Shown: positions 6,446 to 26,515 of the stretch, one piece after another
Layout of the letters: every line of letters starts with the position of its first letter
Position numbering within the stretch: the stretch's first letter is position 1
Origin: Candidatus Portnoybacteria bacterium
GTDB lineage: Bacteria; Patescibacteriota; Minisyncoccia; Portnoybacterales; GWB1-42-6
DNA: 33,424 nt
NCBI GenBank assembly: GCA_028717445.1
Contig: JAQUNU010000001.1
Location: forward strand, 1 to 33,424
Reading direction: 5' to 3'
Program-made: the position numbers and the translations under genes
The notes under the pieces: generated by a model
Told to the model about the DNA's origin: nothing
Database searches by the model: none
Seen by the model: the letters and a program-made list of their open reading frames with translations, nothing else

Positions 6446-7630
6446 ATGCCCTTAACCCGCGAACAACTTGATTTTTTCCAATACCAGGCCAATGCCAATA
6501 TTGATTCTCTTCTCCGGAAGGAATCGCTGTTTTTGGCCATGGAAATGGAACCGTTAATCTTAACCCAATCAGGGGGCAGCTACGACAATCTGTCTGAAGC
6601 AAAAAAATTGCTTTTCCAATTAAAATGGGTCGGCTGCGGCATAATCAGAGATGATAATGATTTTTATGACCTTGTTAAATATCATCTACTAGAAGGATTC
6701 GAGTTAAACAGACGCTTTGAATTTGACGCTTTCAGCGATCTTGTTTTTAGCAAATTAGCTAATCTTTTCGGATCAGGATTGCAGGAAATGACGCAAAATA
6801 TACTTTCCGCAACAAGAGAAAATAATCAAACCATCGGCGCGAATCCGATCATGGTCAAAAATGAAACCCGGGCCGTCCGGCCGACTGTCCGCCATTGGCT
6901 GATAGATTTTTTAAGAAGCTCTTCTGCGGAAAATCCAGGCGAAGTCCAGGAAACCGACTATCTTTTCAACAATCCGAATGCCAAAGCTCTTTCGGAAGAA
7001 GATAAAAAAACACTCGGCCAGGTTTTAGCTTTTTACGATACAATGCGTTTACTCTCAAAGGAGGTGGCTATGTCCGAAACTATGCCTCCAAGCGCCGCCG
7101 AAGAACGCCCGCTGATCGCTCCCTTGCGCCAGCAAACCGGAGATGAATTTCATTTTGAAGAACGGCCTCGGCCGTCCATGTCCGCTTTCTACGAAACCCA
7201 ACAACCATCGCCGCGCCCGATTCCGCCGCAACAATCTTTTTCCAACCCAGCCAGGACTTTTTCTCCGCCCCCGCCGCCAGCTCCTCGGCCGCAACCGGCC
7301 TGGCCGCCATCACCCGAAAAAAATTCCTACCAACCCAGGCCCGCCAGCCCGCCTCCTTCTTTGCCGATCCAGCCGCCATCAACGCCATCAAAGCCAATTC
7401 TTTCCAGAATCACTCCGCCTCAAACCCAACCAGTGACCGGACCTGCTTCTTTCAGGCCAGCTCCAATTCCGCCCCCAATTCCGGTCCGGCCAAATACCCC
7501 ACAACAAAAAAGCACCTACCGCGAGACGATCACCCCAGAAGATTTAGACGGTCCGCAGACGCCCCGAAAAACAGGGCCAAAACTAAATGGAAATGTAGTC
7601 AACCTTAAAGATTTTAACCGATCCAATTAA
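6446..7630 (+). CDS. Hypothetical protein with an extreme proline-rich C-terminal half
   Basis: 394 aa. Residues ~210-370 are P/S/Q-rich low complexity (PPPPPAPRPQPAWPPSPEKNSYQPRPASPPPSLPIQPPSTPSKP). No TM segment was seen. Confidence 0.6.
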   Translation: MPLTREQLDFFQYQANANIDSLLRKESLFLAMEMEPLILTQSGGSYDNLSEAKKLLFQLKWVGCGIIRDDNDFYDLVKYHLLEGFELNRRFEFDAFSDLVFSKLANLFGSGLQEMTQNILSATRENNQTIGANPIMVKNETRAVRPTVRHWLIDFLRSSSAENPGEVQETDYLFNNPNAKALSEEDKKTLGQVLAFYDTMRLLSKEVAMSETMPPSAAEERPLIAPLRQQTGDEFHFEERPRPSMSAFYETQQPSPRPIPPQQSFSNPARTFSPPPPPAPRPQPAWPPSPEKNSYQPRPASPPPSLPIQPPSTPSKPILSRITPPQTQPVTGPASFRPAPIPPPIPVRPNTPQQKSTYRETITPEDLDGPQTPRKTGPKLNGNVVNLKDFNRSN

Positions 7631-19447: not shown

Positions 19448-20812
19448 ATGACCAATCAGGAACTTTGGCAGGCGGCCTTAGGAGAAATCGAACTAAATAT
19501 TTCCAAGACCAACTTCATAACCTGGTTCAAAAGCACCGAGATCGTCAAAATAAAGGATGGCGCGGTGACCGTTGGCGTGCCCAATGGCTTTGCTAAAGAA
19601 TGGCTGGAAAATAAGTATAACAAGCTGATCTTAAAGGCCTTAAGGAATATCTCGCCAGACACAAAGGAAATCGAATTCATTATCGGCGCCTTTTCTTCTC
19701 CGGATTCAGGCGACAGGCCTCTCAAGCTTAAAAAGAAAGAAACTGTTCTCGTGGGCCAGCCCTTCCAGGAGTTTGAGATCAACAAGGAAACCCACCTTAA
19801 TCCCAAATACACCTTCGATAATTTCATTGTCGGCTCATTCAATGAACTTGCGCGGGCCGCGGCCCAGGGCGTGGTCAAGAATTTGGGCGCTCTTTATAAT
19901 CCCTTCTTTATCTATGGGGGAGTGGGTCTTGGGAAAACCCACTTAATCCAGGCCATCGGCAACGAAACCGTCCGCCTTTATAAGAATGAAAAGAAGATCT
20001 GCTACATCAGTTCGGAAAAATTTACGAGCGAGCTAGTGGAATCTCTTTATAAAGGCCAGGTTGAAGAATTTAAAAACAATTATCGCCAAATCGATCTTTT
20101 AATTATCGACGACGTGCAGTTTTTAGCGGGCAAAGAAAAAACCCAGGAAGAATTCTTCCACACGTTCAACGCCCTTTATCAAAGCAACAAACAAATAGTC
20201 ATCAGCTCCGACCGGCCTCCAAAGGCCATCGCAACACTCGAAGAGCGGCTAAAATCCCGCTTTGAAGGCGGCATGATCGCCGATATCTCTTTCCCGGATT
20301 TTGAATCGCGCCTCGCGATTTTAAAAGCCAAGGTTATGGAAAAGAACTTTCAACTCTCGGAAGAAGTTCTTAATTATCTGGCTAATAACATCCAAAAAAA
20401 CATTAGAGAGCTGGAGGGGGCGCTGAACCGCTTGGTTATCTCCGAAAAGCTTAGCGGTTCAAGCGTTGACATTGACCAGGTCGCCAAGATTCTGACCGGC
20501 ATCAACTCCAGCCCCTCTAAAAAGATCAGCTTTAAGACCATCCTACAGGCTGTGGCCGAGTTCTACGACATCAACACCAGCCAGCTAATCAACCGCTGCC
20601 GGAAAAAAGAATTGGTCTACCCCAGACAGATCGCCATGTTTCTCATGCGCGAGGAATTGAAAAGCTCTTTTCCTTTCATCGGTGAAAAACTTGGCGGCCG
20701 GGATCACACCACGGTTATGTATGCCTGCGAAAAGCTGATCCGCGAAGTGGAAACAAACGAATCCCTCCAACAAGAGATTAATCTCATCAAAGAGCATATG
20801 TATAACAGATAA
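19448..20812 (+). CDS. dnaA: Chromosomal replication initiator protein DnaA
   Basis: 454 aa with Walker A GGVGLGKTHL, Walker B LLIIDDVQF and sensor/box VII motifs. The C-terminal DNA-binding domain reads GGRDHTTVMYACEKL. Confidence 0.97.
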   Translation: MTNQELWQAALGEIELNISKTNFITWFKSTEIVKIKDGAVTVGVPNGFAKEWLENKYNKLILKALRNISPDTKEIEFIIGAFSSPDSGDRPLKLKKKETVLVGQPFQEFEINKETHLNPKYTFDNFIVGSFNELARAAAQGVVKNLGALYNPFFIYGGVGLGKTHLIQAIGNETVRLYKNEKKICYISSEKFTSELVESLYKGQVEEFKNNYRQIDLLIIDDVQFLAGKEKTQEEFFHTFNALYQSNKQIVISSDRPPKAIATLEERLKSRFEGGMIADISFPDFESRLAILKAKVMEKNFQLSEEVLNYLANNIQKNIRELEGALNRLVISEKLSGSSVDIDQVAKILTGINSSPSKKISFKTILQAVAEFYDINTSQLINRCRKKELVYPRQIAMFLMREELKSSFPFIGEKLGGRDHTTVMYACEKLIREVETNESLQQEINLIKEHMYNR

Positions 20813-21052: not shown

Positions 21053-22156
21053 ATGAAAATCATCTGCCTTCAGGAAAATTTAAAAACCAGTTTAAATATC
21101 GCGCAGAATGTCGTCAGCCGGAATTTAACCCTGCCAATTTTGAACAACGTCCTGCTTGAAACTGAGAACGGCCGGCTGAAAGTTTCCTCTACCAATCTTG
21201 AAATAGGGATCAACACCTGGACCTCCGGAAAAATCGAAAAAACCGGCGCGATAACCTGTCCGGCCAAAACCCTAACCACTTTTATCAACAGCCTGCCTAA
21301 TAAAAAGATCGAGCTGGAAGTAAAAGGCGACAACCTGTCGATCAAATGCGAAACTTTTAAGGCCAGCATCAAGGGTTTACCCGCGGACGACTTTCCTTTA
21401 ATCCCTAAACTAAAAGAAAGGCCGATCTTTTCATTTAAAAACAACGAAATTTTTAAAAACGATCTGGCCCAAGTTATTGGCGCGGCGGCTGCTTCCGAAT
21501 CCCGGCCGGAGATATCGGGCATCTTTTTTAGTCTGGATAAAGAAGCGGTCAAAATAGTAGGCACGGACGGTTTCCGCCTGGCCGAGAAAACCATTCGGCA
21601 AAATAACGGGCCGGCCAGCCCTCTTTCCTTTATTGTTCCCCAGCGGACGATCCAGGAGTTGATTAGGATCTTAAGCGAAAAGGGAGGCCAGGAAATGAAT
21701 ATGGTTTTGGGCAGCAGCCAGATCCTGTTCGATATGGGCGACGTTCAGCTGATTTCCCGCTTAATAGACGGCCAATACCCGGATTACCAGCAGATTATCC
21801 CCAAGGGATTTGAGACCAAGGCCACGGTTTTAAAAGATGAATTTACCAATAACGTCCGGATCGCCAGCATCTTCTCAAGCAAGGTCAACGATATCCAGCT
21901 TACGCTCAAAGACAGCAAGATTGAATTTTCCGCGCAGGACGCGGATCTGGGAGAAAATAAATCCCAATTAGAAGCGCAGATCCAGGGCAAGGGCGTGCAG
22001 ATGAGTTTTAATTTCCGTTATTTGTTGGACGGTCTTTCAAATATCCCAACCAAGCAGGTTTTTGTCGGCCTGAACGCCGAAAACAGCCCGGCCATCTTAA
22101 AACCGGTGGGGGATGACAGTTTTTTGTATGTGATTATGCCGATAAAAACGGCGTAG
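21053..22156 (+). CDS. dnaN: DNA polymerase III beta sliding clamp DnaN
   Basis: 367 aa with a typical N-terminus (MKIICLQENLKTSLNIAQNVVS..LPILNNVLLE), an RLIDGQYPDY motif and a C-terminal YVIMPI. Confidence 0.95.
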   Translation: MKIICLQENLKTSLNIAQNVVSRNLTLPILNNVLLETENGRLKVSSTNLEIGINTWTSGKIEKTGAITCPAKTLTTFINSLPNKKIELEVKGDNLSIKCETFKASIKGLPADDFPLIPKLKERPIFSFKNNEIFKNDLAQVIGAAAASESRPEISGIFFSLDKEAVKIVGTDGFRLAEKTIRQNNGPASPLSFIVPQRTIQELIRILSEKGGQEMNMVLGSSQILFDMGDVQLISRLIDGQYPDYQQIIPKGFETKATVLKDEFTNNVRIASIFSSKVNDIQLTLKDSKIEFSAQDADLGENKSQLEAQIQGKGVQMSFNFRYLLDGLSNIPTKQVFVGLNAENSPAILKPVGDDSFLYVIMPIKTA

Positions 22157-22166
22157 AATTCTTTTA

Positions 22167-22301
22167 TGTTACTTTTCTGCTGTCAGAAAAGTAACATAAA
22201 GACTGCTTTGCCGGGCATAAAATTTTAAGAAAGATCGGATTCACTCCGCTCATCTCGATTTTCTGATAAAATTTTTGCCAGGCAAGATTGAAGAAAAGGC
22301 C
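22167..22301 (+). repeat. Intergenic repeat element, copy 1 (inverted partner at 27503-27637)
   Basis: About 135 nt and about 94% identical to the reverse complement of 27503-27637. It starts with a 15-bp hairpin (22165-22198) 9 nt after the dnaN stop. It contains an extended -10 (tgataaaat, 22264-22272) and the palindrome ttgccaggcaa (22275-22285). Confidence 0.9.
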
Positions 22302-22350
22302 AGATGCAGATATAGGATTTTTGAAACAAAAAAAGATAGACGTTTTTTCT

Positions 22351-22647
22351 ATGGCATGGACGGCTCTCAAAAGAATGTTGCCGGAAACGGTCCAAAAGTT
22401 GAATCTCGGGCCGGTTTTGGAATTTAATCAGTTGACAATCTGCTGGGACGGCATTTTAGCCGAAGAACTGGGCGAGCCATTCAGGAAAGTTTCAAAACCC
22501 ATCTCGCTTAAAAACAAAATTTTACTAGTGGACTGCTTAAACTCCACCTGGGCGCAAGAACTCCAATTCAAATGTGAGCCTATCAAAGAACGAGCCAACA
22601 AGCTGCTTCAAAAAGAAACAATCTGCCAGATTAGATTTATCAGCTAA
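22351..22647 (+). CDS. DUF721 / DciA-like protein (putative replicative helicase loader family)
   Basis: The tracked ORF is 22288..22647 (TTG start inside the repeat element). I prefer the ATG at 22351. ICWDGILAEELGEPFRKVSKPISLKNKILLVDCLNSTWAQELQF fits the DUF721 pattern, and the position after dnaN is typical. Confidence 0.7.
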   Translation: MAWTALKRMLPETVQKLNLGPVLEFNQLTICWDGILAEELGEPFRKVSKPISLKNKILLVDCLNSTWAQELQFKCEPIKERANKLLQKETICQIRFIS

Positions 22648-22653
22648 AAAAGA

Positions 22654-22674
22654 ACGGCCGAAAGGCTGTTTTTT
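22654..22674 (+). terminator. Rho-independent terminator after the DUF721 gene (also readable on the minus strand)
   Basis: acggcc-gaaa-ggctgt forms a stem with a GNRA loop, followed by tttttt. Confidence 0.6.
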
Positions 22675-22676
22675 CG

Positions 22677-23010
22677 AAACACTCAAAGGGATGGTCTGGT
22701 GAAGGAGATGGAAATGGCAAGAGCGAAACGGAGTTTGTTGGATCGGTTGTTCGAGAAAATGGGCGTGACGGATTCGACCGAATGGTCGAAGAAATGTGCC
22801 GCGCTATTGCGAGAATGAATCGGTGTGTGTCGGTCCTAATTGCGCGGCCAAAGATGCGCTGCTGACCGTGGGCGCCAAGCTCGCGGAAAGGCCCGATTCG
22901 GCGGGGAAGATCGCCTTCTTTTCATATTTCCAGGTCGTCAAGGAAGTGGCCGAATCATGAGCGGCCACGGGTTATTGCGGGGCCGGTTCGTAAGAGCCGG
23001 CCTTCTTTTT
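22677..23010 (+). other. GC-rich island with no convincing ORF; possible structured RNA or decayed foreign gene(s)
   Basis: It is visibly more GC-rich than its flanks. All three plus frames hold only 27-60-aa ORFs and the minus strand is closed. Local hairpins lie at 22773-22790 and 22945-22968. A strong terminator closes the region at 22981-23010. Confidence 0.3.
22981..23010 (+). terminator. Rho-independent terminator
   Basis: ggccgg(t)-loop-(g)ccggcc forms a GC stem immediately followed by ttcttttt. Confidence 0.6.
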
Positions 23011-23168
23011 GTCCTTAGACAGGGGACAATTATGGAAAAAGGGGATAAATATGTTGAGAACGAGGACGATGAAGCGGTGTATGAAAATATTTCTTCGTCC
23101 TCAAATCCGCAGGTTACTCACAGACGAAGAAATAAAGGTATTCTTCTTAAAGGGTGGATAAGAGAGGG

Positions 23169-23196
23169 TTGATGACGATAGTGAAATTGTTATAAT
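23169..23196 (+). promoter_or_regulatory. Candidate promoter TTGATG-16-TATAAT for the 23266 ORF
   Basis: ttgatg lies at 23169-23174 and tataat at 23191-23196. The downstream leader carries two hairpins (23223-23239 and 23241-23258), and the second includes the GGGAG Shine-Dalgarno. Confidence 0.5.
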
Positions 23197-23265
23197 AATA
23201 AAGGTCATAGTAAAAATCCCTCCCCGCCGAAGCGGCGGGACTCCCTTTAAAAAGGGAGAATAAAA

Positions 23266-23805
23266 ATGGATATTAAACTACAGGAAGCGTTTAAAAAAGC
23301 CCAGGCCGAAATCGAGTCGGCTGGGATCGCTGATCTGGAATTAAAAAAGATCGCTTTTGCCAAAGCGATTGATTATTTTCTAAAAAAGGAAGGAAGTTTG
23401 TTTCCGGCAAAGGAAAAGAGCGGCCTGGATTTTTGGCCTGCGCTTTCCAATTCCACCGGCTTTGAGGAAAGAAAGCTGAAAGATATTTACGCGGTTGACG
23501 GCGATCAGATCCGGCTGGTGATCGATAAAGAAAAAATTCCGGGCGAGCGCAAAAGCGAGAAACAGCGAAGCCTGGCCGCACTGGTTTTACTGGCTTATCA
23601 CAACGGCCTGGGTCAGGAATGGGTGGCCTCAAGCGTTCTGGCCGAAGCGGCCAAGCATTCCAAGCTCTATGACACGAGTAAGTATTCCAAAAATTTAAAA
23701 CACGAATGGTTTCGAGCGCAGGGGGTGCGCAAGGGTTTGGCCTGGCGGCTTTCGGCTTCGGGCCTCTCTCAGGTCAGATTTATTTTGCTGGCCATTGCCA
23801 AGTGA
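23266..23805 (+). CDS. Hypothetical protein (179 aa), no family recognised
   Basis: A clean ORF with an AGGGAG SD 7 nt upstream, its own promoter and a downstream terminator. It is predicted to be mostly helical. Confidence 0.6.
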   Translation: MDIKLQEAFKKAQAEIESAGIADLELKKIAFAKAIDYFLKKEGSLFPAKEKSGLDFWPALSNSTGFEERKLKDIYAVDGDQIRLVIDKEKIPGERKSEKQRSLAALVLLAYHNGLGQEWVASSVLAEAAKHSKLYDTSKYSKNLKHEWFRAQGVRKGLAWRLSASGLSQVRFILLAIAK

Positions 23806-23833
23806 AGCATGGTTAAAATTTTAAAAATCAAAA

Positions 23834-23863
23834 AACCGCCCTATAGCGAGGGTGGTTTTGTTT
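23834..23863. terminator. Bidirectional terminator between convergent genes
   Basis: aaccgccc-tatagcga-gggtggtt forms a hairpin flanked by an A-run upstream and a T-run downstream. It sits between the 23266 ORF (+) and the PBP gene (-). Confidence 0.6.
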
Positions 23864-23896: not shown

Positions 23897-26515
23897 TTAT
23901 TCGATTTGAATTTCTGGCGAATTGATGAGCACGTCAATTAAAGCCTCTTTGCGGTTACAAAAACTATCATAAGCCACGGCTTTGATGGTGTGCATGCTGC
24001 CGTTAAGGCGGGAGGGGAGGCGGAAGGAAACCGAAGAGGGGTCTTTCGTATCGGCGCCGATGAGTTCATCGTCAAAAAAGAAATCAACCTGCTTTATGCC
24101 AAGATTTGAAACGGCTGAAGCGGAAACCTGTATCCTTCTTTGGGTGATGACCTGGTTTTGCAAGGGGGAGTTGATAGTTATTGAAGGTATATTTTCCTGG
24201 GTGTGGACATCGTCGGAGCTGTCGGGCTGCTGTTGGGGGACCCAACCGGAAGAAACAGCCCAGGCCCGGATCGGCGCTTCCCAATTGTTGAATTGCGGAT
24301 CAGCCGTCGGATCTTTTGGCGCGTCTCCGAGCGGATTGTCTTTATCGATGTAGAAAAGAATTGTATGGACTTCCGGATAAACTTTTTCTTCGATTAAATC
24401 CGGCGGAGTCATATCAGTGGCCAGCTTGCCGGAAATCTTGTCTATTTTGACTATTCTTTCAAAAACATAACTACCATTCAAGATTGATTTGGCGGCAGGG
24501 GTGGAATCCGGCTTGGTAAAGGCCTCGGGCTCGCTGGGCAGTATAAAACTATTTTCAGGCGCGTCTTGGCGGCTGGAAGCAATCTGATAAGCCTTTTTCA
24601 TAAAAGCGTTCCAAAGCGGCGCGGCGGCATACATGCCAGCCCCGGCTTTGGCCATGGGCGTGTTGTCGTTGTTGCCGGCCCAGACGCCAACCGCCAAAGA
24701 AGGAGTGTAGCCGATGGTCCAGGCGTCGCGATATTCTTGGGTGGTTCCGGTTTTGACCGCTGCCGGCCTCTCGGTTAAATAAAGGGGGGAGTTTGCGCCG
24801 AAAACCGGCGAGCGCGCTTCATTGTCAGACAGGATGTCCGTGACCATTCTTGATATTTGCGGATCGATAATTTTTGTCGGGTTTGACTCGTATTCTTCTA
24901 AGATTTTTCCTTTGCCGTCTTCTATTTTTAAGATGGCGGCCGTTTTGTTTTTTATGCCATCAGCCGCGAAAACACCAAAGGCGGCCGTTTCATCAAGGAG
25001 TTTGACTTCGCCGCCTCCCAGAACCAATGCCAGGCCGTAGCGGCTGCGGTCGTTCAGGGTGGTGATGCCCATAGATTTGGCGGTTTCAATGGTTTGATTA
25101 ATGCCGGCCAGATACAAAGTTTTGACCGAGGGAACGTTGAGCGATTGGGCCAGGGCTTCGCGCATGCTAACAGGCCCTCTGAATTTGCCATCGTAGTTGT
25201 CGGGGTTATAGCAGCGTTGACCCTCAAATTCTTGGGCCGTGGCCGAAGCCGGGCAGGCAGGGGCAAATTCAGTTTTTAAATCAAAGAGCATGGTTTCGGG
25301 AGTGAATCCTTTTTTAAAAGCGGTGGCGAAAGCGAATGGCTTGAAAGAAGAACCCGGTTGGCGGTCACGGATTGAAACATTGACGTAGGGCTCGTATCGG
25401 CAAGTATCGCCCGGAGTACAGCCGGTCGGAAGGGAGTCGGCTGTGTCATCGCGGGAACCGGCCATGGCCAAAATTTGGCCGGTCTTCGGGTCAACGGCAG
25501 TTAAGGCGGCGTTGTAGGCGCCATATTTTTTTTGATTGTCAGCTGCTCCTTGATTGATTATTTCTTGGGCTGCTTCTTGGAGTTCGATATCAAGCGTGGT
25601 GTAAACTTTAAGGCCGCCTTTTTCAACTGTTTCCTGGCCATATTTTTCTTCCAGATATTCTTTAATATACATAACAAAATGCGACGCCTTGATGGATTGG
25701 GCGGTTTTTGAAAAATTAAGCTGTTCTTTTTTGGCGGCCTCCGCTTCTTCGGCGCTGATATATCCCAGCTTTGCCATTCGGTCTAAAACATACTCCTGCC
25801 GGCTTTTAAGCTCTTCGGGATGGGAGCCAAACGGGGAATAATAGCTGGGGGCCTGGGGCAATGAAGCCAGAAGCGCGCCCTCGGCCAAATTCAGATCTTT
25901 GGCTGATTTATTGAAAAAAGTCTGGGCGGCCGCTTCAGCGCCATAGGCATTAGATCCATAAGGAATTTGATTCAAATAAAAACCAAGAATTTCATCTTTG
26001 GAATATTTAGCTTCGAGCTCAAGCGACAATATCCACTCTTTGACTTTTCTCGTATAAGACCTTTTGTCCGAGAAAAATGATTTTTTGATAAATTGTTGAG
26101 TGATGGTTGAGCCGCCTCCGGCTGAACGATTTCCCGTCAGGACGCCGATAATCGCCCGCCCGATACCCTTGAAATCAAGGCCGAAGTGATTATAAAAATT
26201 CGCGTCCTCCACTGAAATCGTCGCGTTTTTCAGATTTGGTGAAATTTGATCGAGCGCGACAATAGTCCTTTTTTCTTCGCCATGCACATCATAAAGAAGC
26301 ACTGTTCCGGTGCGATCGTAAATTTTAGTTGATTGGGTTATTTGTCGATGAGAAATTGTGCTCGGATCCGGCAGATCCTTGGCAAAATATGCAAAAGCGG
26401 CCGTGGCAACCAAAAGGCCGGCAAAAACAAAATATCCCGAGAGCTTCAGGATTCTTTTTAAACAAGCCTTTCTTTTTTTAATCGCGTTGTAATAAGGGCG
26501 ATAGTATTTCATCAA
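23897..26515 (-). CDS. Class A penicillin-binding protein (PBP1A-type glycosyltransferase + transpeptidase) with a C-terminal Ig-like extension
   Basis: 872 aa with an N-terminal TM helix. GT51 motifs are present (EDANFYNHFG, GGSTITQQ, RKVKEW), as are transpeptidase motifs SSFKP (SxxK), SLN (SxN) and KTGTT. An extra ~100-aa beta-rich C-terminal domain follows. Confidence 0.93.
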   Translation of the reverse strand: MMKYYRPYYNAIKKRKACLKRILKLSGYFVFAGLLVATAAFAYFAKDLPDPSTISHRQITQSTKIYDRTGTVLLYDVHGEEKRTIVALDQISPNLKNATISVEDANFYNHFGLDFKGIGRAIIGVLTGNRSAGGGSTITQQFIKKSFFSDKRSYTRKVKEWILSLELEAKYSKDEILGFYLNQIPYGSNAYGAEAAAQTFFNKSAKDLNLAEGALLASLPQAPSYYSPFGSHPEELKSRQEYVLDRMAKLGYISAEEAEAAKKEQLNFSKTAQSIKASHFVMYIKEYLEEKYGQETVEKGGLKVYTTLDIELQEAAQEIINQGAADNQKKYGAYNAALTAVDPKTGQILAMAGSRDDTADSLPTGCTPGDTCRYEPYVNVSIRDRQPGSSFKPFAFATAFKKGFTPETMLFDLKTEFAPACPASATAQEFEGQRCYNPDNYDGKFRGPVSMREALAQSLNVPSVKTLYLAGINQTIETAKSMGITTLNDRSRYGLALVLGGGEVKLLDETAAFGVFAADGIKNKTAAILKIEDGKGKILEEYESNPTKIIDPQISRMVTDILSDNEARSPVFGANSPLYLTERPAAVKTGTTQEYRDAWTIGYTPSLAVGVWAGNNDNTPMAKAGAGMYAAAPLWNAFMKKAYQIASSRQDAPENSFILPSEPEAFTKPDSTPAAKSILNGSYVFERIVKIDKISGKLATDMTPPDLIEEKVYPEVHTILFYIDKDNPLGDAPKDPTADPQFNNWEAPIRAWAVSSGWVPQQQPDSSDDVHTQENIPSITINSPLQNQVITQRRIQVSASAVSNLGIKQVDFFFDDELIGADTKDPSSVSFRLPSRLNGSMHTIKAVAYDSFCNRKEALIDVLINSPEIQIE

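What the first reader, a model, noticed from the sequence alone, without database searches (positions are those of the whole stretch)
22677..23265. ~600 bp with no credible ORF, including a GC-rich island that ends in a strong terminator
Between the DUF721 terminator and the 23266 gene, no strand has a convincing gene. 22690-23010 is conspicuously GC-rich for this genome (for example gcgcggccaaagatgcgctgctgaccgtgggcgccaagctcgcggaaaggcccgattcggcgggg). All three plus frames are open for only 27-60 codons, which is typical of structured RNA or a decayed high-GC gene.

The short ORFs are 22708/22714-22818 with an AAGGAG SD, an overlapping frame ending ...FFSYFQVVKEVAES at 22960, and 23032-23172 (46 aa). 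Stable local hairpins lie at 22773-22790 and 22945-22968, and a GC stem with a U-tract at 22981-23010.

In a genome this compact, such a gap is unusual. It could hold an unannotated ncRNA, a frameshifted horizontally acquired gene, or a small-protein module (for example toxin-antitoxin-like, given the ATGA stop/start overlap at 22957-22960).
Basis: seen in the sequence. Interest (0 to 1): 0.6.

Follow-up and report, generated by a model that had tools for sequence, protein, structure and literature searches.

The report
Orphan insert with split small ORF
The gene-poor, GC-rich stretch is the left half of a roughly 1.15-kb piece of DNA found only in this tiny bacterium's lineage; it reads like a small, frame-broken protein gene closed by a terminator, matches nothing known, and shows no sign of being a structured RNA, so it is ordinary accessory DNA.

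Summary
22690-23010 has 55.5% GC against a genome mean of 43.5%, which puts it in the top 0.6% of windows. It contains only 27-63-codon open frames, the stated hairpins and a strong terminator at 22979-23010.

The context explains most of it. Six related genomes keep dnaN-dciA facing the PBP1 gene with 100 bp or less between them; this genome has 1249 bp. So about 22677-23834 is a lineage-specific insertion. Its right half is orf179, a winged-helix-like gene. Elsewhere orf179 relatives almost always follow a 137-aa partner gene ("g1"), in cassettes inside type I restriction-modification or defence loci.

The island is not a g1 remnant: all profile scores are negative. It has no significant match in Rfam, Pfam, NCBIfam, PHROGs, PADLOC, 1.84-5.8 billion proteins, 59 order-level genomes, 401 phylum genomes, plasmids or phages. 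It does not fold better than shuffled sequence (z -0.5 to -1.3).

Codon usage is gene-like in frame 1 (22699-22815), then frame 2 (22796-22957), and in a 46-codon ORF (23032-23172). My best reading is a small cargo gene split by a +1 frame break, without its own promoter. The last 53 nt are a dispersed two-hairpin repeat that supplies orf179's ribosome-binding site. Interest is low.

The parts
22653..22674 (.). Hairpin plus T-run directly after the dciA stop codon (TAA 22645-22647), with an A-run before and a T-run after. It marks the left edge of the insertion.
   Evidence: Read from the sequence. The weak Rfam hits STnc50 and STnc370 align only to this terminator-type stem. The terminator scan did not list it.
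22677..23834 (.). Lineage-specific insertion of about 1.15 kb between the convergent dciA and PBP1 genes.
   Evidence: The spacer is 1249 nt here. It is 79, 76 and 63 nt in G004, G003 and G010, and 100 nt or less in G006, G008 and G002, with dnaN-dciA / PBP1-ruvC-yebC synteny kept.
22690..23010 (+). GC-rich island (55.5% GC, G-rich on the + strand).
   Evidence: No DNA match in 40 relatives, 59 genomes of the order, plasmids or phages.
22714..22818 (+). ORF-A, frame 1, 34 codons (39 from the GTG at 22699). AAGGAG at 22702-22707 lies 6 nt upstream.
   Evidence: Codon score of the 39-codon form is 0.22 bit/codon, exceeded by 1.2% of 3533 spurious ORFs; the 34-codon form scores 0.10, exceeded by 6.8%. 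A strong Shine-Dalgarno precedes 12% of long ORFs but only 1.3% of out-of-frame ATGs.
22796..22960 (+). ORF-B, frame 2 (+1 relative to ORF-A), 54 codons from a GTG; the frame is open from 22769. It overlaps the end of ORF-A by 23 nt.
   Evidence: Codon score 0.29 bit/codon, exceeded by 0.17% of spurious ORFs. GC1/2/3 are 0.61/0.44/0.69. Called as a protein in the public record (P0001). Single-sequence AlphaFold gives a helical hairpin at pLDDT 64, which is inconclusive.
22773..22790 (+). 7-bp hairpin TTCGACC-GAAT-GGTCGAA, inside the zone where the coding signal changes frame.
22893..22907 (.). 15-nt stretch that is the inverted complement (14/15) of hairpin arm 23221-23235 of the 53-nt repeat.
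   Evidence: I4. Only 7 such stray matches occur in 709 kb, so the chance of one in this stretch is about 0.006. Its meaning is unclear.
22946..22968 (+). 7-bp hairpin GTGGCCG-N9-CGGCCAC; its loop holds the ATGA stop/start overlap.
22979..23010 (+). Intrinsic terminator: 11-bp stem (7 G-C pairs), GUAA loop, then CTTTTT. It works on the + strand only.
   Evidence: The stem is present in every fold.
23032..23172 (+). ORF-C, 46 codons, AT-rich (GC3 0.35). AGGGGA at 23021-23026 lies 5 nt upstream. No promoter lies between the terminator and its start codon.
   Evidence: Codon score 0.28 bit/codon, exceeded by 0.34% of spurious ORFs. No family match.
23088..23134 (.). Perfect 12-bp inverted repeat TATTTCTTCGTC-N23-GACGAAGAAATA inside ORF-C. 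A third copy of the half-site lies at 22784-22795.
   Evidence: I5, I6. The genome has 94 such repeats where chance predicts about 2. It is a candidate protein-binding site or RNA hairpin; this was not tested.
23029..23057 (-). Promoter-like site on the minus strand (TCAACA-17-CATAAT, 9/12) pointing leftwards into the island.
   Evidence: Consensus match only.
23169..23196 (+). Promoter of orf179: TTGATG-16-TATAAT with an extended-10 TG (10/12).
23213..23265 (+). 53-nt two-hairpin dispersed repeat. It forms the orf179 leader, and its 3' end (GGGAGAATAAAA) supplies the ribosome-binding site.
   Evidence: Five strong copies and at least 7 weaker ones in the genome, plus copies in two genomes of the same family. 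Compensatory changes occur in hairpin 2. The leader fold has z -2.6. Similarity to the cassette loci starts only at 23263-23266.
23266..23805 (+). orf179, an intact member of an unnamed family ('g2'). Its predicted fold is winged-helix-like.
   Evidence: 28 homologue clusters at 45-61% identity, with all invariant residues kept. pLDDT 84; weak Foldseek matches to BigR, AspA and F-93 (E about 0.6).
23835..23863 (.). Two-way terminator hairpin shared by orf179 and the PBP1 gene. It marks the right edge of the insertion.

Best explanation
The stretch is the non-conserved left arm of a roughly 1.15-kb insertion that only this lineage carries between dciA and the PBP1 gene.

Shown:
- The insertion is absent from six related genomes.
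- Its right arm is orf179, a winged-helix-like gene. Elsewhere it belongs to a mobile two-gene core (a 137-aa gene, here called g1, followed by the orf179 family, g2) found in restriction-modification and defence loci. Here it is solo.
- orf179 is driven by its own promoter and uses a native 53-nt repeat as its leader and ribosome-binding site.

Inferred:
- The GC-rich island is protein-coding-type DNA, not a structured RNA. It looks like one small gene of about 80 codons that started at ATG 22714 behind AAGGAG, now split by a +1 frame break near 22770-22815 into 34/39-codon and 54-codon pieces, and closed by the strong terminator at 22979-23010.
- It has no promoter of its own and lies behind the dciA terminator, so it can only be reached by read-through. 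It is most likely decaying cargo.
- What it still does in practice is stop read-through from the dnaA-dnaN-dciA operon before the orf179 control region (23011-23265).
For: - Insertion. The spacer is 1249 nt here against 63-100 nt in six relatives with the same flanking gene order. orf179 is absent from 40 relatives but has 28 homologue clusters elsewhere.
- Solo g2. In 37 of 38 informative loci, g1 sits directly upstream of g2. No g1 exists anywhere in this genome.
- Foreign composition. 55.5% GC is in the top 0.6% of windows. GC3 of 0.64-0.69 is above the maximum (0.61) of the 281 long ORFs.
- Coding-type signal. Codon log-odds are positive in frame 1 over 22680-22770 and in frame 2 over 22800-22920. 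ORF-B is exceeded by 0.17%, ORF-C by 0.34% and the 39-codon ORF-A by 1.2% of 3533 spurious ORFs, and all three values are typical of real 50-codon gene chunks.
- GC-rich patches in this genome are almost always coding.
- Gene-like layout: AAGGAG lies 6 nt before ATG 22714, and a terminator follows the ORF-B stop by 19 nt.
- Not an RNA. No Rfam hit and fold z of only -0.5 to -1.3.
- No promoter-like site was found on the + strand between 22200 and 23168.
- The same sequence appears in an independent assembly.
Against: - No homologue supports any reading frame: 5.8 billion proteins by shared words, 1.84 billion by phmmer, and four profile libraries. 'Gene' therefore rests on codon statistics from 39-54 codons.
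- About a dozen short ORFs lie in the stretch, so after correction the individual p-values are only about 0.02-0.15.
- Frame 0 also scores mildly positive over 22680-22770.
- Open frames of about 60 codons are not rare in 55% GC DNA.
- The frame break could equally be two separate overlapping genes.
- A decaying pseudogene would be expected to drift towards AT, yet this is the most GC-rich non-genic DNA in the window.
- Expression could not be examined.
Confidence: 0.45

Rival explanations
1. The short ORFs are intact, working small-protein genes: ORF-A (34-39 aa), ORF-B (54 aa, starting at GTG 22796 inside the end of ORF-A) and ORF-C (46 aa, or a 71-aa form from ATG 22957 coupled through the ATGA overlap). 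They would form a small accessory operon, perhaps working with the solo winged-helix protein orf179 in place of its missing partner g1.
For: All three ORFs have gene-like codon usage. ORF-A has a strong ribosome-binding site and ORF-C a plausible one. The ATGA overlap is typical of coupled genes. The public record annotates ORF-B, and another assembly's caller annotates the 71-aa form. AlphaFold gives ORF-B a two-helix hairpin.
Against: There is no homologue at all, and both called ORFs are singleton clusters. ORF-B has no ribosome-binding site. The 71-aa form would be translated through a strong terminator, and its first 25 codons are not gene-like. No promoter was found. The pLDDT is only 64. 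The gene calls disagree between assemblies.
Confidence: 0.22
2. The stretch is neutral filler: an insertion or recombination scar with no coding history and no function. The codon signal, the ribosome-binding-site-like AAGGAG and the hairpins would then be by-products of composition and chance. Only the terminator and the orf179 control elements matter.
For: No conservation anywhere. No promoter. The corrected significance of the codon signal is modest. The stretch contains a fragment-like match to a native repeat at 22893-22907, which suggests patchwork DNA.
Against: Three separate ORFs each fall in the top 0.2-1.2% of spurious ORFs. The signal changes frame exactly where one frame closes and the next opens. 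Filler DNA in a 0.7-Mb genome with 83-nt median gaps would be expected to be AT-rich and quickly deleted.
Confidence: 0.2
3. The island encodes a non-coding RNA. It could be on the + strand, ending at the 22979-23010 terminator, or on the minus strand as an antisense RNA of about 375 nt, starting at the promoter-like site 23057-23029 and ending at the two-way dciA hairpin.
For: High GC and several stable local hairpins. A clean terminator on the + strand, plus a promoter-like site and a terminator-like hairpin in the right places for a minus-strand RNA.
Against: No Rfam family at E<=10. Folding energy is not better than shuffles on either strand (z -1.3, -0.5, -1.2, -0.7). High GC in this genome marks coding DNA, not RNA genes. 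There is no homologue, so no covariation can be tested. The locus is absent from all relatives, so it cannot be an essential RNA.
Confidence: 0.08

Closest known systems
Strain-specific accessory insertions ('islets') lodged between convergent genes at their shared terminator, carrying orphan or decaying cargo ORFs (a general, well-known class; my own knowledge)
   Same: It is inserted exactly where relatives have one two-way terminator. Its composition is atypical. It is absent from sister genera. It carries a mix of one intact foreign gene and unmatchable short ORFs, and each end has a terminator.
   Different: No integrase, transposase, direct repeats or tRNA target were seen, so the insertion mechanism is unknown. 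At 1.15 kb it is unusually small.
The unnamed g1-g2 cassette (137-aa gene followed by a ~185-aa orf179-family gene, then variable genes) found between hsdM and hsdS of type I restriction-modification loci, beside AbiEii, or beside serine recombinases (loci L017-L059)
   Same: orf179 is a full-length member of g2 (45-61% identity, all invariant residues kept). The finding occupies the position that g1 holds in 37 of 38 loci.
   Different: The island is not g1: the profile gives negative bit scores, and g1 genes have 27-45% GC against 55% here. The conserved tandem promoters and CTCTTGCAT motif upstream of g1 are absent, as are the downstream variable genes. Only one other solo g2 was seen (L053).
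REP/BIME-type repetitive extragenic palindromes of enterobacteria (for 23213-23265 only; my own knowledge)
   Same: Short (about 53 nt), intergenic and dispersed, often in head-to-head pairs. It is built of GC-rich hairpins with compensatory changes between copies and looks like a terminator in one orientation.
   Different: The sequence is unrelated. The copy number is low (about 7-12). In this copy the element lies inside a 5' leader and provides the ribosome-binding site of orf179. At C43:4798 the opposite end of a copy abuts the start codon of a DUF559-like gene.
ADP-forming acetyl-CoA synthetase / succinyl-CoA synthetase alpha, 'GPNC ... GK-I-x-F-I-S' segment
   Same: Joined across the frame break, the peptide aligns over about 52-60 residues (31-35% identity) with this segment of 958-aa proteins from one CPR genus. 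GPNC and GKIAFFS fall at the right spacing. A profile built from 30 CPR enzymes ranks the island's frame-2 fragment first among 26,946 six-frame fragments of this genome.
   Different: It is not significant. E is about 0.16 after 401 genomes, 1.6 genome-wide for the fragment and 0.24 for the joined peptide. The family profile scores lower than the single sequences do. PF13380 and PF13607 find nothing here. No such chain turns up in a PDB sequence search; the only hit (E 1.4) is an unrelated LmbE-type deacetylase. I treat this as a lead only.

Membership tests
Any Rfam RNA family | Match to a covariance model at or near its gathering score | tested here: not met
   cmscan of 22400-23500 on both strands at E<=10: the best score is 22.8 bits against gathering scores of 48-70. 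The hits lie on the dciA terminator hairpin or are scattered noise. No tRNA or tmRNA was found.
Structured non-coding RNA (generic) | Folding energy clearly below that of dinucleotide shuffles | tested here: not met
   z = -1.32 (+ strand, 22680-23015), -0.51 (minus strand), -1.19 (22830-23012, + strand), -0.73 (minus strand, 22645-23022).
Structured non-coding RNA (generic) | Covariation in homologous sequences | not testable with these tools
   No homologous DNA in 40 relatives, 59 genomes of the order, 43 cassette loci, plasmids or phages.
g1, the usual upstream partner of the orf179 family | Match to a profile built from 25 g1 proteins, in any frame | tested here: not met
   No island fragment at E<=100 among 26,946 six-frame fragments. 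Direct scores are -0.7 to -2.2 bits. The short word-level resemblances seen by tblastn at E>1 were noise.
Type II toxin-antitoxin module | Match of either small protein to a known toxin or antitoxin family | tested here: not met
   Pfam, NCBIfam, PHROGs and PADLOC gave no family at E<=0.1.
Type II toxin-antitoxin module | Two adjacent small genes with overlapping stop/start behind their own promoter | tested here: inconclusive
   Overlaps exist: 23 nt between ORF-A and ORF-B, and ATGA at 22957-22960. No promoter-like site lies upstream, and a terminator sits inside the would-be second or third gene.
Programmed +1 frameshift of the prfB type | Slippery CUU UGA C site with a Shine-Dalgarno-like element 3 nt upstream | tested here: not met
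   Frame 1 ends ...UUG CGA GAA UGA A. There is no CUU and no upstream GGGGG/AGGAGG.
Rho-independent terminator (22979-23010) | GC-rich stem-loop followed directly by a T tract | tested here: met
   11 pairs, 7 of them G-C, 4-nt loop, then CTTTTT. The region has 7 such sites against 2.7 expected.
ADP-forming acyl-CoA synthetase / SCS-alpha superfamily (as a gene fragment) | Significant profile match to the CoA-binding or ligase domains | tested here: not met
   PF13380 and PF13607 give nothing at E<=10 in the whole genome. A custom profile of 30 CPR enzymes gives 8.6 bits (E 1.6) for the fragment and 11.4 bits (E 0.24) for the joined peptide. A PDB search returns no member.
Dispersed palindromic repeat, REP-like (23213-23265) | Several intergenic copies with conserved hairpins | tested here: met
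   Five copies at 81-93% identity, plus seven more by nhmmer at E<0.02. A compensatory CTCCC/GGGAG to CCCCC/GGGGG change occurs in hairpin 2. Copies are also present in G001 and G006.

The most novel reading that the evidence does not exclude
The island's product (a small protein of about 80 aa made despite the frame break, or its two halves, or an RNA) is a non-homologous replacement for g1, the partner that the orf179-family winged-helix protein has in 37 of 38 other loci. On this reading, a defence-island regulator pair has swapped one member in an ultrasmall bacterium, and the 12-bp inverted repeat at 23088-23134 is the operator of the pair.
Probability: 0.06. Interest if true: 0.5.

Novelty: new member of a known kind. 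Interest (0 to 1): 0.18.

Why it matters
By itself this matters little: it is an unconserved, strain-specific patch with no assignable function.

It is useful in three small ways:
- It shows that even a 0.7-Mb CPR genome takes up and keeps about 1 kb of foreign DNA beside its replication genes.
- It gives a clean example of a native palindromic repeat being used as the leader and ribosome-binding site of an acquired gene.
- It drew attention to an unnamed, widely scattered two-gene core (g1-g2, both probably winged-helix proteins). This core sits in front of variable, partly defence-like genes inside type I restriction-modification loci and may deserve its own study.

Tried and rejected
1. g1 remnant. 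tblastn at word size 2 gave tempting colinear snippets, but the g1 profile scores are negative. Rejected.
2. Remnant of any other gene from the 43 cassette loci. blastn and tblastx found nothing.
3. Known RNA. Rfam at E<=10 and ARAGORN found nothing.
4. Homologues of the joined 82-aa peptide among 5.8 billion proteins, and of frame 2 among 1.84 billion. Only the sequence itself came back, plus a eukaryote-like repeat protein whose 'RYCHSESTCRV' units match by chance.
5. Pfam, NCBIfam, PHROGs and PADLOC, including at E<=10. Nothing.
6. Plasmid and phage DNA. No match. The orf179 family is not in viral contigs.
7. DNA search in 59 genomes of the order. Only 19-33-nt chance hits.
8. Paralogues in the genome itself. 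None.
9. Acetyl-CoA-synthetase fragment. An attractive motif match, but not significant. The PDB search instead gave an equally weak LmbE-type hit, which shows this is noise level.
10. AlphaFold of ORF-B alone. pLDDT 64, uninformative.
11. Other strains, for polymorphism or an empty site. Only one further contig covers the island, and it is identical there. The dnaN contigs break at a nearby repeat.
12. Public sequencing runs.
13. A promoter for the island inside the end of dciA. Only a 4/6 + 4/6 match by eye, below the scan's threshold.
Full report
**Setting**

The window is contig C1 of a 0.71-Mb, 73-contig genome with 43.5% GC. Earlier notes of this scan place it among the Parcubacteria/CPR. 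The local gene order is:
- dnaA, 19448-20812
- dnaN, 21053-22156
- dciA, 22288-22647 (PF05258, E 1.4e-10)
- the stretch in question
- a 179-codon ORF, 23266-23805 ('orf179')
- a class A penicillin-binding-protein gene on the minus strand, 23897-26515

**Observation**

- 22690-23010 is 55.5% GC. Only 0.58% of 320-nt windows in the genome reach that value.
- The plus frames are open for 27-63 codons only.
- AAGGAG lies at 22702-22707, 6 nt before ATG 22714.
- The hairpins at 22773-22790 and 22946-22968 appear in the minimum-energy fold.
- 22979-23004 is an 11-bp stem with a GUAA loop, followed by CTTTTT.
- By a crude gene call, the 618-nt gap ranks about 22nd of 522 gaps (median 83 nt).
- Automatic callers do place genes here, but they disagree. 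The public record has the 54-aa frame-2 ORF; a Logan assembly has a 71-aa frame-1 ORF. Both are singletons.
- The Logan contig is identical to the window across the whole stretch, so the frame structure is not an assembler's quirk.

**The stretch is half of a lineage-specific insertion**

- Six genomes of the same family, from five genera (dnaN 60-71% identical), keep dnaN-dciA facing PBP1-ruvC-yebC.
- Their dciA/PBP1 spacers are 79, 76 and 63 nt in the three closest genomes and 100 nt or less in the others. Where I read the spacer sequence (G004, G003), it holds a single two-way terminator.
- Here the spacer is 1249 nt, with a terminator-type hairpin at each end (22653-22674 and 23835-23863).
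- About 22677-23834 has therefore been added in this lineage.
- orf179 is absent from 40 relatives but is not an orphan: 28 clusters of homologues at 45-61% identity exist in metagenomes and in Margulisiibacteriota, Jorgensenbacteria, Saccharibacteria and Paceibacterota genomes. orf179 keeps all 30 invariant residues.

**What normally sits where the finding is**

- In 37 of the 38 loci with enough upstream DNA, the orf179 homologue ('g2') is directly preceded by a conserved 137-aa gene ('g1'). Variable genes follow it.
- These cassettes lie between hsdM and hsdS of type I restriction-modification systems, beside AbiEii, or beside serine recombinases. One downstream gene matches the PADLOC candidate defence family PDC-S05 (E 1.9e-13).
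- None of the cassettes is on viral contigs.
- The obvious idea was that the GC-rich island is a decayed g1. It fails:
  - A profile of 25 g1 proteins finds no island fragment at E<=100 among all 26,946 six-frame fragments of the genome, and the direct scores are negative.
  - g1 genes have 27-45% GC, never 55%.
  - The conserved promoter region upstream of g1 is absent.
  - Similarity to the cassettes begins exactly at the orf179 start codon.
- orf179 is therefore a solo g2, as in one other locus (L053). No g1 exists elsewhere in this genome.

**Coding or RNA?**

- No Rfam family matches at E<=10.
- Folding is no better than in shuffles on either strand (z -1.3, -0.5, -1.2, -0.7).
- In this genome, high GC marks coding DNA: of about 95 patches with at least 54% GC, all but about three lie inside long ORFs.
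- A codon log-odds model trained on the 281 long ORFs is positive in frame 1 over 22680-22770 and in frame 2 over 22800-22920.
- Against 3533 spurious ORFs of similar length, ORF-B (0.29 bit/codon) is exceeded by 0.17%, ORF-C (0.28) by 0.34% and the 39-codon ORF-A (0.22) by 1.2%. Real 50-codon gene chunks average 0.26.
- ORF-A has a strong ribosome-binding site. Such sites precede 12% of long ORFs and 1.3% of out-of-frame ATGs.
- GC3 is 0.64-0.69, above the 0.61 maximum of the long ORFs, which fits a foreign origin.
- The layout is therefore that of a small gene: ribosome-binding site, about 80 codons, terminator. Its reading frame shifts by +1 somewhere in 22769-22815.
- There is no prfB-type slippery site.
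- No promoter-like site lies upstream, so expression would depend on read-through of the dciA hairpin.

**Homology searches**

All of these were empty, or returned only hits that are not significant:
- the joined 82-aa peptide in 5.8 billion proteins
- frame 2 by phmmer in 1.84 billion representatives (the second hit is a chance match to a repeat protein)
- Pfam, NCBIfam, PHROGs and PADLOC
- plasmids and phages
- the 43 cassette loci
- the genome itself
- 59 genomes of the order at the DNA level

A six-frame search of 401 genomes of the phylum gave one lead:
- The joined peptide aligns across the frame break with the 'GPNC ... GK-L-x-F-I-S' segment of ADP-forming acetyl-CoA synthetases of one genus.
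- This is tempting because it spans the break, and because a profile of 30 such enzymes ranks the island fragment first in the genome.
- But the numbers are not significant: E is about 0.16 after correcting for 401 genomes, 1.6 for the fragment and 0.24 for the joined peptide.
- The profile scores lower than the single sequences do.
- PF13380 and PF13607 find nothing.
- A PDB search returns an unrelated LmbE-type enzyme at the same noise level.
- I record it as untested-level evidence only.

AlphaFold of ORF-B alone gives a helical hairpin at pLDDT 64, which is uninformative.

**The AT-rich right part (23011-23265)**

This part belongs to orf179.
- It holds the promoter TTGATG-16-TG-TATAAT (23169-23196).
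- It holds a 53-nt two-hairpin element (23213-23265) that is a dispersed repeat of this genome: five strong copies, at least seven weaker ones often in head-to-head pairs, and copies in two genomes of the same family.
- The 3' end of the repeat, GGGAGAATAAAA, abuts the ATG and so supplies the ribosome-binding site. In the fold that site is paired inside hairpin 2 (z -2.6).
- A perfect 12-bp inverted repeat (23088-23099 / 23123-23134) lies inside ORF-C. The genome has 94 such repeats where chance predicts about 2. It could be a binding site for the winged-helix-like orf179 protein (pLDDT 84; weak Foldseek matches to BigR, AspA and F-93), but that is inference only.
- A 15-nt inverted match to the repeat's hairpin arm lies in the island at 22893-22907 (p about 0.006) and is unexplained.

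**Verdict**

- The finding is real but ordinary. It is the unmatchable left arm of a small accessory insertion.
- It is most likely a frame-broken small cargo gene closed by a strong terminator that now shields the orf179 control region from the dnaA-dnaN-dciA operon.
- Working small proteins, neutral filler or an RNA cannot be excluded without transcript data.

Noticed in passing
L017-L059 (for example L018:2583-4673); window 23266-23805: An unnamed, conserved two-gene core is scattered across CPR phyla and Margulisiibacteriota. It consists of g1 (137 aa) and g2 (~185 aa, the orf179 family). No Pfam, NCBIfam or PHROG family matches either gene. g2 is predicted to be winged-helix-like; g1 only looks so by eye, without a fold prediction. 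The core sits in front of variable genes: one matches the PADLOC candidate PDC-S05, and others carry RxxxxH-type (HEPN-like) motifs by eye. It lies between hsdM and hsdS of type I R-M loci, beside AbiEii, or beside serine recombinases. Upstream of g1 there are two conserved tandem promoters and a CTCTTGCAT motif. It looks like a portable regulator pair for defence cargo.
   Followed up: partly
window 23213-23265; G000 C18:6742-6800, C3:16478-16536, C3:21536-21595, C43:4793-4851, C11:5602-5657 and 6594-6649: A dispersed 53-nt two-hairpin repeat, often found as head-to-head pairs. Both of its ends are purine-rich and can act as ribosome-binding sites. GGGAGAATAAAA-ATG starts orf179 here. At C43:4798 the opposite end (GGGGGAGGGATTT-ATG) abuts the start of a DUF559-like endonuclease gene. 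Read on the minus strand, the element looks like a terminator.
   Followed up: partly
window 23101-23208 (minus strand): A 35-codon minus-strand ORF (MTFIIITISLSS...) with a hydrophobic N-terminus. It starts 9 nt after the GGGGAGGG end of the repeat and runs antisense to ORF-C. Its codon score is unremarkable. A type I toxin-like reading is pure speculation.
   Followed up: no
window 22288-22647: The listed dciA ORF (119 codons from TTG 22288) is about 21 codons longer than in relatives (97 aa), and alignments begin at residue 21-24. The true start is probably the ATG at 22351 (MAWTALKRM...).
   Followed up: partly
G000 C7:7721-8340: The only other large GC-rich patch (58% GC) in the genome without any long open frame. 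It is probably a structural RNA gene, but I did not identify it.
   Followed up: no
whole genome G000 and the phylum sample: ADP-forming acetyl-CoA synthetase-type genes are present in 116 of 401 sampled genomes of the phylum. Neither PF13380 nor PF13607 gives any hit in this genome.
   Followed up: partly
L064, L065 (Logan contigs carrying the identical dnaN): Independent assemblies of this organism break just after dnaN, at the ~135-bp inverted-repeat element (22167-22301) described in another first-stage note. This is consistent with that element being a true multi-copy repeat.
   Followed up: no
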